DNA of 64,000 nt from Eledone cirrhosa (GCA_964016885.1 OZ024765.1:22444001-22508000), one strand, 5' to 3'. Shown: positions 179 to 63,556, counted from the first letter of the stretch. Translations and numbers: made by a program. Notes: generated by a model not told the origin, from the letters alone.

Positions 179-1442
179 ATTGTCATGAGAGAGAGGAGAG
201 GAGAGGAAGAGAGTCAACTGAAATCAATAAATAAATAAATGATGTTTGTTTTTGATGAAATGTCGCGAAAAGGTGAAATGATGGAAGGAGACGTGGGTGG
301 GGTGGGGGTAGTGGGGGGGAAGTCGTCATAGTGAAAGTAATAGGGGCGGAGGTGTAGAAGATAGTGAGGTGAGGGTGCAGGTAATGAGGTGGGGCTGGGG
401 GGAGGGTGAGGGTGCAGGTAATGAGGTGGGGCTGGGGGGAGGGTGAAGGTAGCGAGGGAGAGGTGTAGGGAAGATAGATTTACTACATACCCACCTCCCA
501 AGCAACTACCCTAAAAGGAAAGTAGAATTTGAAAAAGAATCTGGTCCCCCCCCCCCCTGCACTCTCCTCCCCACATACCTCTCCCTCCTACCCCAAACCC
601 TGCCTGCCCCTCCTAATTCCTTAACATTAAAACAAAAGCCAGTAAGAATTTCTTAGATAGAACTAATAAATAAACATTTGTCCCGATCCTGTCCCCCAAT
701 AGCCCCCAACTCCTCACCCAATCCCCCTTACTAACACCAACACTAACCCCCCCCCGCACTAACACTCCCCTCCCCCAACCCAACACCCCAACCGTGCTCC
801 TCTCACCCCCAACCATGCCCCCCTCATCCCCCAACCATGCCCCCCTCACCCCCAATCATACCCCCCTCACCCCCCAACCCCACACCAACACCCACCAGCT
901 GCCGCTACCCCCACCAGAAAATAACCGTAAAAAAACAACCACCACCAACAACAACAACACCCCACTCCCCCGCCCGAGATAGATCCAGAAATATCTTGTA
1001 GGGTCAAAGGAGAACTGCCACACCTCCCAACCTCCAACAGATTGGTCAGATAGAATCGAAGATGGCGTCTGATTAATTGAAGCAGATTGGTCAACGCTAA
1101 GATTAGTCTCTTATGATTAATTGGATGTGATCATAAAACTGTGAGTACCAAAGAAAGCATATGTTTGGCTGCTTAGCTGCCATGTATTTTGAGCAATATA
1201 TGTGTGTGTGTGTGTGTGTATATATATATATATATATATATATATATATATGTATGTATGTATGTGAATATATATATATATAGAGAGAGAGAGATTTTGA
1301 GTATATGTTGGTTGTATACCAACACCTCAGTATGCATATTGAAGCACTCGACGAAGTGCGCAGGTTGGTTTGGTTTCTCCGGAGTAATGTAAAATAAAGT
1401 AAGATAAATAAGTCAAATGTTTAAAATTTAGCTTCGTTTATT

Positions 1443-1497
1443 ACTGCTATATATATTTCGGTGACAGCCATCTTTGGCTGTGACCTCTTCAGGCAGT
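1443..1497 (-). ncRNA. Minimal type I hammerhead ribozyme
   Basis: Reverse complement of the motif at 1720-1774. Confidence 0.8.
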
Positions 1498-1719
1498 CCG
1501 AATTAGTGTGGTATAGACAAGTACATATGTTGTTGAGGTGTATAATATTGTCAATACTCTGATATACCCAGTTCCTGGTTGGGTTGTTATTTCACTGAGG
1601 AACTGGAATCATATGAATCATGTGAAATAACAACCCAACAAGGAACTGGGCATATCAGAGTATTGACAATATTATACACCTCAACAACATATGTACTTGT
1701 CTATACCATACTAATTCGG

Positions 1720-1774
1720 ACTGCCTGAAGAGGTCACAGCCAAAGATGGCTGTCACCGAAATATATATAGCAGT
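1720..1774 (+). ncRNA. Minimal type I hammerhead ribozyme
   Basis: actgc CTGAAGA ggtcacagcc-aaagat-ggctgtcacc GAAA TATATA TA gcagt: stem I, core, stem II, palindromic stem III. Confidence 0.85.
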
Positions 1775-1949
1775 AATAAACGAAGCTAAATTTTAAACAT
1801 TTGACTTATTTATTTTACTTTATTTTTTTATATATATATATATATATATATATATATATATATATATATGTATATGTATATATATATATTAGAAAGTAAG
1901 GTTTTTTTACAAAATGAAAAATAACCGAGGTGTCCTACACGAGTGAAAG

Positions 1950-2090
1950 TATAAAGAAAAAAAGATGAAATCGAAAATGCAACTGGAGTCTTATGTTTAA
2001 AAAATATATAAAAGGAACCAAATAAATATATACATTTTTTAAAAAATAAGACTCCAGTTGCATTTTCGATTTCATCTTTTTTTCTTTATA
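1950..2090. repeat. 45-bp inverted repeat with ~50-bp spacer
   Basis: tataaagaaaaaaagatgaaatcgaaaatgcaactggagtcttat (1950-1994) and its reverse complement (2046-2090). Confidence 0.85.
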
Positions 2091-59390: not shown

Positions 59391-61170
59391 CACCATTTAA
59401 AGTCAATATATTTATATATATGTCATCATCATCATCATCGATTAATGTCCATCTTCCATGCTAGCATGGGTTAGACGGGTCCTATTTTGAGGTAAATTGT
59501 GTCGGGTGACCGTGTCTCGCTCAAATAGGGGTGTTTCTGGGTGGTTTTCTATGACTGGATGCACTTCCTAGCCCTAACCACATTTACAGTGTGGACTGGG
59601 TGCTTGTTGCCGTTTCTTTTACACGTCCACTTGTATATATATATATATATATAACAAACAAAGTGTGGTAAGGAACCAGGTGGACCATAACGCACCAGAG
59701 TACTCAATACTGGGAAGTAGAGTGGGTAATAGCTGCCGAAATGGCCAGAGCTCTGCCATCGGGGTCCTGACTCTTTTTCTATCAAAAATCACGAGCACTC
59801 TATCTCAAAATTATTTTTGAAAAGCATAAGAAATGTGCAACCGGTAAAAACTTAAATCAAAAACTGAATACTAACTAATACTTATTACTAACTAATACTT
59901 ATTCCTAATTAAACTATTTTTCACTGGGAAAAATTTGTCAGCATTTTCTTTTCTTTTTTACTAATATATCACAACTCGTGTGTCACACCTCTATTTTTTA
60001 AATATATATATATATATATATATATATATATACTCAATACATAAACAGAGAAAGCCTTAAGCAATACTCCGACCAACTCCATCTCACTCAACAAACATTA
60101 GGATATACCTAAGTATTATCCCAGTTTAGTGTTTGGGCTGCTAACTATTCAGTATTTCGTGGATAGCTGGTTGTATTATTTTATATGAGACATTATTAAA
60201 TATCTCTTTCCTTCCAGACGATGGCTTCGTTATAAGATTTCTACAATTTGGGATAAATAATGTCCAGGTTATGTAGAAACTTGTATATAATCCATAGTTT
60301 TATACACAAGCGGACTCTTATAAACTCATCGGTGGATGCCCAAATAATATCGATATAAGAATTATATCGACATTAATAGAATGGACACACACACATATAT
60401 GCACAGCTGTGAGGTCAATTTTGGGGAGGGACTAGGCTGGTGTTTCTAGCAGGATGTGTGACTTCTCAGAAGACACTAGACCAGTTATTGGTGTAAACAC
60501 ACAAGCAGGTGAACATTCACGCATGAACGCACAGGAAAAATGACGGACAACGCCCACAATATACATACATGTATACACACGAATATACATGTATATCTAA
60601 GTATATATATGCCCATATACAAACACACACATACATGCATATATATATATATATATATATATATATATATATATATATATATATATATATATACACACAT
60701 ACATACATATATATATATATATATATATATATATATATATATATATATATATACACACATACATATATATATACACACACACATATAGATAGATAGATAG
60801 AATTATATATATACATATGTGTATATATATATACACATATATATATATATATACACACACATATATATATATATATACATATAGATTCAGATATGTGTAC
60901 ATGCATGCATACACATATACCTACACACACATGCACATAGGTACATGTATATACATATATATATATATATACATACATGCATACACACTTGCACATACAT
61001 ACATTAATAAATACATCAATATATATATGTATATATAAATACATCAATATATACTTAAATAGAATACAAAGACTACGCCTCTGTAACGCAGTGTTACATT
61101 AGTATATATATACAAATTGTATATATATATATATATATATATATACACACACATATATATACACATATAT

Positions 61171-62665
61171 AAAAATATGCCACTCTACCTGGCATTCGTT
61201 GATCTCGAGAAAGCCTTTGACAGAGTCCCCTGTGCTATAATCTGGTGGGTTCTTAGAAAACTAGGAGTAGATGAATGGCTTGTGAAAGCTGTACAAGCCA
61301 TGTATAGGGGAGCAGTCAGCAAAGTTAGGATTAGCAATGAGTATAGCGGGGAATTTAGCGTACAGGTTGGGGTCAACCAGGGCTCTGTTCTTAGCCCTCT
61401 CCTATTCATCATAGTCCTGCAGGCAATAACGGAGGAGTTTAAGACCGGATGCCCATGGGAACTCCTGTATGCTGATGACCTCGCACTTATAGCTGAATCT
61501 ATGGTAGAACTAGAGAAGAAATTCCAAACTTGGAAGCAGGGACTAGAAAGAAAGGGTCTCAAAGTCAACATGACAAAGACTAAGGTCCTTGTAAGTAGAC
61601 GAGAAAACAGAACCCAGATTCCCTCAGGGAAATGGCCTTGCTCATTATGTAGGAAAGGTGTAGGTAGGAACTCCATTCTCTGCCCCAAATGCAAACAATG
61701 GGTACACAAGAGATGTAGAGGGATCTCAGGAAGCTTAATTAAGAATGTAGGCTTCACATGCAGCAGCTGTGCTGGGAAAACAAACAGCAAACAGCCACAG
61801 AAAACAAGTACCACCAATCTCTGGGAGGCCTCTGTAGAAACAGTAGACAGCTTCTGCTACCTAGGTGACCGAATTAGCAGCGGAGGTGGGTGTTCGGAAA
61901 GTACAATAACTAGGGTAAGAACAGGATGGAAGAAGTTCAGGGAGCTACTGCCACTGCTAGCTGCAAAAAGGCTTCTCCCTCAAAATGAAAGGCAGACTGT
62001 ATGATGTGTGTATACGAACAGCAATGTTACATGGTAGTGAGACCTGGGCGCTGAAGGTGGAAGACTTACGTAGATTAGAGAGAAACGAAGCCTGCATGCT
62101 CCAATGGATGTGTAACAGTAATATACGCGAACGGCAAAGCATAAATGAATTGAGAGAGAGACTGAGCATAAGAGGAATCAAATGCTGTGTGCAGTAGTGG
62201 AGGTTGTGTTGGTATGGACATGTGAAGCGTATGAAGGATGACAGCTGCATAAAAAGGTGCAGAGCACTAGAAGTCGATGGATGAAGAAGACCTGGGATGA
62301 GGTGATAAAAGCCGACCTTACCCAATTACACCTCTCAAAGGCGATGACACACGACCGTGACCTCTGGCGTCACGCAGTAATTCAGAAGACCCGACCCCCC
62401 ATGGGTACAAGCTGAAGCATATAGACAATATGCCTCCACACCCACCCACTCTAAAGTGTAGGTGCCACGGAAAAAGCACCCAGCACTCACTGTAAATGAG
62501 GTTGGTGTTAGGAAGGGCATCCAGCTGTAGAAGTCAAGCCAAATCAGTTCCTGTATGAGCAAGGCATGGTCAACCAACCAGACACTGCCCACAACAGGAC
62601 AACCCATCTAACCCATGCTAGCGCGGAAGAACGGACGTAAAACGGTGATGATGATGATGATGATA
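61171..62665 (+). mobile_element. RTE LINE, 5'-truncated, RT plus PHD finger, decayed
   Basis: FVDLEKAFD, GVNQGSVLSP, YADD, C4HC3 finger 61633-61770, frameshift near 61965, stops, (GAT)n tail. Confidence 0.93.
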
Positions 62666-62703
62666 TATATATACATATATATATATGTATATATATATAT
62701 ATA

Positions 62704-62885
62704 TTTAATATAGAAAAGCTTCTACAGGATTAGAACTGTTTCATTCGTGAGAAATCATCAGGAAGGTGACTGTCCAAGTAACATGGTATTTATACTTTTT
62801 CTGGTGGTTTATACTCTATTTATACTCTGCTTTGTATTGAGTACCTTCCTTACTGTGGTTACCCCCGATTGAGCCCGGGATAAAC
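62704..62885. mobile_element. Family D pLTR remnant with hammerhead (62719-62765, minus)
   Basis: Minus: cttc CTGATGA tttc-tcac-gaat GAAA CAG-ttctaatc-CTG TA gaag; tail on plus matches 36955-37015. Confidence 0.75.
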
Positions 62886-63198
62886 TTATCTTATGTGTAT
62901 ATGTATATATATATATATATATATATATATATATATCACCATCGTTTAATGTCCATTTCCCATGCTTGCATGGGTCAAATGGGTCTTCCACGTCATGAGA
63001 CAAATCGGGCCAGATTTGGCCAGATTTGGCCACACCATATCTTGTTTAGATGGATCTGTAAATTTGGCTGAGTATTTTACAGTAGGATGCCCTTCCTAAC
63101 ACCAACCACATTTACAGTGTGGACTGGGAACCTTTTTACCGTGTTTCCTACACGACCACTTTACAGCGTGGAATGTGTTTTTTTTTGTATATATATAT

Positions 63199-63556
63199 AT
63201 ATAAGTTAAAACAATGAAATAAAAAAATCAAGTCATTAGAAATATACTTCACTGCTTTGCGATCGTTTCTAGGTGATGATAATACATCGTAACTATACTT
63301 CGTTATCGACCTATGTAACGAAGTATAGTTACGATGTATTATCATCACCTAGAAACGATCGTAAAGCAGTGAAGTATATTTCTAATGACTTGATTTCTTA
63401 TTTCATTGTTTTAACTTATATCATGACTCTGTTTTCCTTTTAATGTTTTATTGTTTTCCGGGATTTATTTTAACCTACAACATTTTCAACATATGGATTA
63501 CATTGAGTTCTTCATGCAGACTAGACCCCACAACTTACCGTGGATACCTCTGTGCA
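63199..63556 (+). mobile_element. pLTR-like hairpin with hammerhead 3' half
   Basis: Palindrome 63199-63421; GAAA CGATCG TA; tail with gactc...gagtt. Confidence 0.6.

What the first reader, a model, noticed from the sequence alone, without database searches (positions are those of the whole stretch)
1298..63556. About 20 further hammerheads in several families of short hairpin-forming Penelope-like remnants
Seen: hairpins at 1391-1826, 2843-3179, 7429-7758, 36821-36951, 55057-55384, 56330-56632, 56914-57242 and 63199-63421, plus single arms at 5640, 11455, 15155, 24895, 33242, 55882, 57961 and 62704. Nearly all sit in (TA)n, and hairpin arms always point outward. Established: Penelope-like elements carry minimal hammerheads in pLTRs and leave inverted 5'-truncated copies. 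No PLE ORF was seen here. Inference: this density means any transcript crossing the region meets self-cleaving motifs on both strands and long dsRNA that could feed ADAR editing or small-RNA pathways.
Basis: partly seen in the sequence, partly recalled or inferred. Interest (0 to 1): 0.72.

Follow-up and report, generated by a model that had tools for sequence, protein, structure and literature searches.

The report
Two-armed Penelope ends with ribozymes
The ribozyme-like motifs are the tail ends of a known kind of jumping gene (Penelope-like elements) that is common across this genome; nearly every two-armed copy ends at two different fixed points, and one copy has the same cluster of A-to-G changes in both arms, so both arms were likely copied from one RNA that had likely been edited first.

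Summary
Observation largely confirmed. Outside the 310-bp array, 21 sites have both hammerhead core boxes. A strict descriptor finds 15, against 0.1 per 64 kb in shuffles. One listed hairpin (63199) has only half-ribozymes.

They are 5'-truncated 3' ends of 14 sequence groups. Ten were traced to collinear RT/GIY-YIG ORFs: eight Hydra-clade (one intact 892-aa ORF), two Neptune/Nematis-type. The density is genome-wide (roughly 250,000-560,000 motifs); this window is not an outlier.

Added here: 150 of 154 classifiable two-armed insertions have one arm ending at site 1 and the other at site 2. A bulged ACUC/GAGU hairpin sits at site 1 in the Hydra-type groups. Hairpin 56330-56720 carries nine private A-to-G changes in both arms, likely an ADAR scar on the template RNA.

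The idea that passing transcripts self-cleave is not supported: a read-through RNA locks its ribozyme in a ~160-bp duplex, no host gene was seen, and 0 of 147 arms start at the cleavage site. The scan reported the same three added features before in other windows of this genome; I did not find them in print.

The parts
1298..1826 (.). Family A two-armed insertion: minus arm 1298-1618 with tail (end 2, core at 1492), plus arm 1622-1826 (end 1, core at 1725). Parent is an intact Hydra-clade ORF.
2843..3265 (.). Family B two-armed insertion, cores at 2943 (-) and 3079 (+); the plus arm carries the tail
5640..5888 (.). Family C3 two-armed insertion: minus arm with hammerhead (5737), plus arm 5832-5888 tail only
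7429..7850 (.). Family B2 two-armed insertion, cores at 7531 and 7656, stem I interrupted next to the core; no own parent traced (about 81% to B)
11452..11734 (-). Family A single arm with tail, core at 11650
15155..15568 (+). Family E single arm (end 1), core at 15381, U17. Parent has Cx4CxxC linker and CCHH (Neptune/Nematis type). No ACUC/GAGU hairpin.
24739..24871 (+). Full family ribozyme has a U3-A8 core and a 6-bp stem III.
24895..25252 (+). Family K single arm with tail, core at 24990; old family (80-85%), parent not traced
33242..33363 (-). Family H, decayed minimal hammerhead (33355), single 3' end, abuts (TG)n, parent not traced
36821..37018 (.). Family D two-armed insertion, cores at 36880 and 36892, 4-bp stem III
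54935..55041 (.).
55057..55470 (.). Family B two-armed insertion, cores at 55156 and 55284; folds as a ~160-bp duplex
55882..56107 (-). Family C single arm with tail, core at 56072; linked to C2 and C3 by DNA similarity only
56330..56720 (.). Family C2 two-armed insertion, cores at 56431 and 56531
56578..56625 (+). Nine private A-to-G changes at +1 to +48 from the ribozyme cleavage site, mirrored in the left arm (about 56338-56385)
56746..57242 (.). Family F two-armed insertion: left arm with tail and complete CCGAUGA (U4C) ribozyme, 81-nt stem II region; right arm truncated in the core
57700..58081 (+). Family I single arm, minimal hammerhead at 57965 with 2-bp stem I; very young (100% copies); Neptune-type parent
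58144..58231 (-). Family J tail fragment (another at 59661-59732)
62704..62890 (.). Family D two-armed insertion: minus arm with hammerhead (62761), plus arm mostly tail
63199..63550 (.). Family G two-armed insertion, 3' half of ribozyme only; full family ribozyme has a U3-A8 core and a ~120-nt stem II region

Best explanation
These are 5'-truncated 3' ends of endonuclease-bearing Penelope-like retroelements, mostly Hydra clade, and each hairpin likely forms when the element's enzyme cuts a (TA)n repeat and copies one RNA twice, from two fixed start sites, onto the two cut ends. Shown: links to RT/GIY-YIG ORFs, two fixed 3' ends per family, one arm at each end, (TA)n flanks, a bulged ACUC/GAGU hairpin at end 1, and a shared A-to-G cluster in one insertion. 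Inferred: the two ends are the two reverse-transcription start sites; the two short cDNAs join head to head by annealing or fold-back at preferred points; the bulged hairpin positions the enzyme; the template is uncleaved RNA, so the hammerhead is a passenger in these remnants; the A-to-G cluster is ADAR editing of the template before copying.
For: Parents: family A lies about 1.2 kb after the stop of intact ORFs of 894 and 893 codons stop to stop (L121, L122). B, C2, C3, D, F, G, J lie collinear behind Hydra-type EN or RT-EN pieces, and E and I behind CCHH-type ENs. Ends: bimodal in 12 of 14 groups. 150 of 154 two-armed insertions with both ends classifiable are end1+end2; 38 of 40 in the 600 kb taken by position plus the window; 11 of 11 in the window. 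PMC11167929 (sections read) shows in vitro that a Poseidon protein cleaves and extends both strands and starts at two RNA sites that bound the tail, and that ribozyme cleavage is dispensable. 0 of 147 arms start within 3 nt of the cleavage site. Hairpin: within -2 to +5 nt of end 1 in the references of 10 of 11 Hydra-type or related groups, with different upper-stem sequences that keep pairing; 0-0.15% of base shuffles give it; absent in E, H, I. Edits: 9 of 24 A between cleavage site and end 1, 0 of 38 upstream, 0 of 34 in the tail, same nine in both arms, background 9 of 710, P about 1e-11; covered by short-read contigs with no differences at depth about 12. Across pairs, 88 rare variants are shared by both arms against 395 in one arm.
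Against: 63 of 217 pairs could not be classified. Most loci came from best-hit searches and favour long young copies. K and H have no traced parent; C and B2 are linked by DNA similarity only. The hairpin descriptor failed on the C3 reference (it is visible by eye in one C3 copy, L154) and on the single K copy used. I chose the descriptor after seeing the tails, so the shuffle rates are optimistic. End positions are blurred by TA microhomology. Only 1 edited insertion (2 of 734 arms) was found, and it shares one A-to-C and one G-to-A change as well. The neighbour preference is weak (no edited A has a 5' G or C; 3 of 15 unedited do). Shared variants could come from a common source locus or from conversion between arms. 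No RNA or biochemical data.
Confidence: 0.8

Rival explanations
1. One-primer fold-back: a single cDNA starts at one site, stalls, folds back and copies itself, and the second end arises by endonuclease resolution rather than a second RNA start. This is the older reading of the tail (PMC8557442).
For: Arms meet with overlap or a gap of 20 nt or less in 148 of 217 pairs, and at preferred points (B about -125, D about -42). It also explains variants and edits shared by both arms.
Against: Insertions whose second arm is tail only (5832-5888, 54977-55041) share little or no sequence with the first arm, so one arm cannot be a copy of the other. In vitro data show two start sites (PMC11167929).
Confidence: 0.12
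2. One reading: the region works as a field of self-cleaving and dsRNA-forming cassettes that shape host transcripts.
For: The motifs are real and many are intact. D has a 4-bp and J a 6-bp stem III and could cleave as monomers. One copy carries an editing-type scar.
Against: Density is similar genome-wide. Read-through RNA sequesters the ribozyme. No host exon seen among 34 of 73 open frames scanned. Minimal PLE hammerheads cleave poorly (PMC4209133). Old copies decay (33355).
Confidence: 0.05
3. The hairpins are MITE-like DNA transposons or foldback elements with terminal inverted repeats.
For: Long near-perfect inverted arms in TA-rich sites.
Against: Arms vary at the inner end and are fixed at the outer ends, are asymmetric by the tail, and extend into RT/GIY-YIG ORFs.
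Confidence: 0.02

Closest known systems
Hydra clade of C-terminal EN+ Penelope-like elements (Craig et al. 2021, PMC8557442; section 11 read whole, other passages, supplement rows including Hydra-1_Obim from Octopus bimaculoides)
   Same: RWK, DKT, CxCX5C linker, no CCHH, CxxC and CxH around the EN's E and N, canonical hammerheads, (TA)n targets, inverted 5'-truncated copies with a one-sided tail.
   Different: Here at least eight families with thousands of candidate matches each or several hundred at least, elements over 4 kb for family A against under 3 kb, tails of 59-165 nt against 30-40 bp, a near-strict end1+end2 rule and a tail hairpin not mentioned in what I read.
Minimal hammerheads of metazoan PLEs (Cervera and de la Pena 2014, PMC4209133; abstract, results, discussion read)
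   Same: Type I, palindromic short stem III, extra base before stem II, U3-A8 variant, pairs on opposite strands 100-700 bp apart, many families per genome.
   Different: Stem II regions up to about 120 nt (F, G), a family-wide U4C core (17 of 25 matches), 4-6-bp stem III in D and J, and an estimated 250,000-560,000 motifs against 4,000-9,000 reported there and 126,247 in axolotl (PMC7229834, passages); descriptors differ.
Poseidon element of Anolis in vitro (Frangieh et al. 2024, PMC11167929; main text read)
   Same: Two RT start sites bounding the tail, AT-rich target, both strands cut and extended, ribozyme cleavage dispensable.
   Different: Different clade; start sites lie in an AC-rich stem-loop inside the ORF there, in the 5' UTR beside a bulged ACUC/GAGU hairpin here.
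Animal non-LTR retrozymes (PMC7229834 passages; bioRxiv 10.64898/2026.07.22.740005 abstract, introduction and first methods)
   Same: Type I hammerheads in dispersed repeats related to PLEs; fits the 310-bp array at 21518-24675.
   Different: The listed copies are not tandem monomers; ten groups are truncated ends of coding elements.

Membership tests
EN+ Penelope-like elements | Single ORF with RT and C-terminal GIY-YIG EN upstream of the repeat | tested here: met
   Intact ORF for A; EN fragment hits Pfam GIY-YIG E=8e-4, below the curated cut-off; family F ORF hits RVT_1 E=7e-6; the whole A ORF gave no informative Pfam hit. Collinear pieces for 9 more groups.
EN+ Penelope-like elements | Parent ORF for groups K, H, C, B2 | tested here: inconclusive
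   None collinear within fetched flanks; C and B2 are 81-90% like linked families.
EN+ Penelope-like elements | Hammerhead in the pLTR | tested here: met
EN+ Penelope-like elements | 5' truncation, inverted copy, one-sided tail | tested here: met
   H and I show one 3' end only
Hydra clade | RWK motif and DKG changed to DKT | tested here: met
   A (L121) and F (L300); the other parents fetched lack this region or are broken there
Hydra clade | CxCX5C linker | tested here: met
   A, C3, G, J exact; F has CxCX6C; not recovered for B, C2, D
Hydra clade | CCHH absent; CxxC before E and CxH after N | tested here: met
   CxxC..E in A, B, C2, C3, D, F, G, J; N..CxH in the same eight; two-cysteine core only in E and I
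Hydra clade | (TA)n insertion | tested here: met
Hydra clade | Phylogenetic placement with reference Hydra RTs | not tested
Hydra clade | Groups E and I | tested here: not met
   Cx4CxxC linker and CCHH core; I has DKG. Neptune or Nematis type; which of the two was not tested.
Type I hammerhead ribozyme | Core boxes and three stems | tested here: met
   16 of 21 with stem I of 4 or more pairs; 5 weak or interrupted
Type I hammerhead ribozyme | Self-cleavage | not testable with these tools
   Needs an assay
ADAR-edited template | Clustered one-strand A-to-G changes private to the copy | tested here: met
ADAR-edited template | ADAR neighbour preference (5' U/A over C/G; recalled rule) | tested here: inconclusive
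   9 of 9 have 5' U or A, but so do 12 of 15 unedited A
ADAR-edited template | Edited sites in double-stranded RNA | tested here: inconclusive
   5 of 9 predicted paired in extended stem I (p 0.64-0.97), 2 in the adjoining loop, 2 weak; the partner strand is unedited
Non-LTR retrozyme | Tandem non-coding monomers | tested here: not met
   Listed copies are not tandem and ten groups have coding parents

The most novel reading that the evidence does not exclude
Hydra-clade Penelope elements insert by twin priming on a single RNA: a conserved bulged ACUC/GAGU hairpin marks each of two start sites, both cut ends of a (TA)n target are extended, and the cDNAs join head to head. ADAR edits on that RNA, here starting exactly at the ribozyme cleavage site and loosening stem I, are written into inherited DNA, in a genome holding several hundred thousand hammerheads, more than any count I read.
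Probability: 0.45. Interest if true: 0.72.

Novelty: new member of a known kind. Interest (0 to 1): 0.45.

Why it matters
How Penelope-like elements make their inverted, tailed insertions is an open question (PMC8557442 says so; PMC11167929 answers part of it for another clade). A near-strict two-end rule, a shared RNA hairpin at the start site and an intact young ORF give a direct in vitro test. An A-to-G scar shared by both arms would show RNA editing entering genomic DNA and would barcode the template.

Tried and rejected
Rfam scan: no hammerhead family among the 150 of 377 rows shown; hits were microsatellite and hairpin miRNA look-alikes below their cut-offs.

RNA evidence: no RNA holder listed; no statement on expression follows.

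Neptune as the clade of family A: my first reading, dropped after checking the motifs of PMC8557442 section 11.

Family D as a ribozyme with an insert at the cleavage site, or a non-circular permutation (PMC10085705, passages): rejected; it has an ordinary 4-bp stem III.

U3-A8 and U4C cores as new: both are in print (PMC4209133; PMC3088659, passages).

Cleaved RNA as template: 0 of 147 arms start within 3 nt of the site; the nearest are at -4 and +7.

Window as a hotspot: 15 descriptor hits against 6.7-10.9 per 64 kb elsewhere, P about 0.08; 25 family arms against 11.5-16, with families defined in this window.

Parents for K and H: not found in the flanks of 15 loci each plus one longer K region.

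Second hairpin after end 2: seen in the one family A copy that runs on (L121); the F, G and second A stretches tried did not contain the 5' UTR.

Single-sequence folds of the ribozymes were mostly unremarkable (z from -2.5 to +1.0).

Protein search: 42 relatives, almost all unnamed, one from Argonauta hians.

Lunse et al. 2017 could not be read; it may report more core variants and counts.

Literature searches for the hairpin, the two-end rule and edited copies gave no listing that describes them. PMC13282606 (passages) has no mention of ribozyme, editing or hairpin. File S2 of PMC8557442 (hammerhead and consensus data) was not examined and may bear on novelty.
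Full report
Setting. The window is G000:C26:22444001-22508000 in a 3.0-Gb, (TA)n-rich animal genome. An octopod is likely (one named relative of the element's protein is from Argonauta; inference, not tested further). The open frames scanned (34 of 73) gave only LINE-type RT, endonuclease and PHD domains; no host exon was seen.

The observation. A core regex, reading of each locus and a site-by-site table give 21 sites outside the 310-bp array with both hammerhead boxes. 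Sixteen have at least four contiguous stem I pairs; five are weak or interrupted. A strict descriptor finds 15 outside the array against 0.1 per 64 kb in 20 shuffles, so they are not chance. The hairpin at 63199 holds only 3' halves, and 56914 holds one complete variant ribozyme. Two 'single arms' (5640, 62704) have a tail-only second arm. The same descriptor finds 53 hits in 40 stretches of 10 kb taken at round coordinates, or 250,000-560,000 genome-wide by bootstrap, and the window is not an outlier (P about 0.08).

Parents. Own-genome searches show several hundred to about 3,000 first-look candidates per family. Family A extends into a GIY-YIG domain, and a protein search found full-length frames. 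L121 has an intact ORF of 892 aa from its Met with the hammerhead about 1.2 kb after the stop. B, C2, C3, D, F, G and J lie collinear behind related ORF pieces; E and I behind other ENs. Motifs place A, B, C2, C3, D, F, G, J in the Hydra clade as defined in PMC8557442 section 11, which already lists an octopus member. E and I have the Cx4CxxC linker and CCHH core of Neptune or Nematis. K and H have no traced parent. The window has no PLE ORF.

Ribozymes. Most have a palindromic minimal stem III like those reported to need dimers or protein. D has a 4-bp and J a 6-bp stem III. G and J have a U3-A8 core (15 of 16 and 15 of 16 pattern matches begin UUG and carry A8) and F has CCGAUGA (17 of 25 matches). 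Both variants are in print.

Anatomy of insertions. 3' ends are bimodal in 12 of 14 groups; H and I have one end. The stretch between the ends, the tail, is 54-165 nt and in family A is the start of the 5' UTR of the next unit. Of 217 outward-pointing pairs, 154 have both ends classifiable and 150 are end1+end2. In the stretches taken by position plus the window it is 38 of 40. Arms meet closely and at preferred points. None of 147 arms starts within 3 nt of the cleavage site. This matches the in vitro result for a Poseidon element: two start sites bound the tail, both strands are extended, and cleavage is dispensable. The inference is that each hairpin is two cDNAs primed on the two ends of one cut. 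Tail-only second arms argue against one arm being a copy of the other.

Tail hairpin. Families that cannot be aligned share ACUC-stem-loop-stem-2 nt-GAGU within -2 to +5 nt of end 1: 10 of 11 references among the Hydra-type and related groups, with upper stems such as CGGAGU/ACUUCG, CAGU/ACUG, UGC/GUA, UACU/AGUA and loops of 3-67 nt. It is absent in E, H and I. Shuffles give 0-0.15%, but the pattern was chosen after seeing the tails. A similar hairpin follows end 2 in the one family A copy that runs on. A role in positioning the enzyme is inferred from position and covariation only. I noted the end-1 hairpin before consulting earlier findings (note); the twin after end 2 was a lead from them.

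Editing scar. The C2 hairpin at 56330-56720 has nine A-to-G changes at +1 to +48 from the cleavage site, identical in both arms and absent as a set from the other C2 arms sampled. None lies upstream (0 of 38 A) or in the tail (0 of 34). Background is 9 of 710. Short-read contigs cover both clusters without differences at depth about 12; these runs may be the sample that was assembled, so they exclude an assembly error but are not a second animal. It is the only such insertion among 734 arms, and no cluster of the three control types passed. ADAR editing of the template is the best explanation (established: inosine is read as G). Five sites are predicted paired in the ribozyme's extended stem I, so the duplex may be internal, or a source hairpin with a short arm. 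The systematic test was prompted by an earlier finding.

A transcript through a hairpin folds into a ~160-bp duplex of -261 kcal/mol that buries the ribozyme. Long dsRNA is therefore expected if the region is transcribed, but self-cleavage is not, except perhaps for single arms. No RNA run was listed, so transcription is untested.

Verdict. Real, abundant, and a known kind: Hydra-clade and Neptune/Nematis-type PLE ends with hammerheads in (TA)n. The two-end rule, the tail hairpin and the editing scar were not found in eight literature searches, with Lunse 2017 and File S2 of PMC8557442 unseen. The scan reported them before on other DNA of this genome; those notes are not independent support. 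Interest 0.45.

Noticed in passing
   Followed up: partly
window 21518-24675: 310-bp hammerhead tandem array, itself two-armed (4.4 units one way, 5.8 the other) and flanked by the same short sequence in (TA)n; looks like a retrozyme inserted the PLE way.
   Followed up: no
window 24739-24871, 58144-58231, 59661-59732: Family J, very common in fetched loci, mostly truncated inside stem II; full ribozyme has a U3-A8 core and a 6-bp stem III; Hydra-type parent found.
   Followed up: yes
L121:1419-4094 (G000:C2 near 291.94 Mb), L122: Intact young Hydra-type ORFs with a long basic low-complexity insert between RT and EN; the protein search had 52,004 first-look candidates.
   Followed up: partly
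L292:5690-7859 (minus): Another near-complete Hydra-type ORF whose 3' end matches none of the 14 window groups.
   Followed up: no
L233:5900-8580 (minus): Fragments of a further PLE with different RT and EN motifs, beside E, B, C and J copies in one 10-kb stretch.
   Followed up: no
window 17651-20678 (-), 61087-62330 (+), 63600-64000 (+): LINE fragments with endonuclease, RT and a PHD finger after the RT.
   Followed up: partly
window 9228-9788 and 14283-14744: Two mariner-like transposase fragments in opposite orientation (identified by eye from the translation; no Pfam hit at E<=0.001).
   Followed up: no
window 26908-30521, 43567-44252, 45702-47200, 48305-53288, 53559-54660: Long minisatellite arrays with periods 65, 92, 22, 56 and 61.
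   Followed up: no
families B, D, C3, J: 5' truncation points cluster (B near -125, C3 near -129, D near -42, J near -40 from the cleavage site); B's lies at a short palindrome, D's at the 5' edge of stem I.
   Followed up: partly
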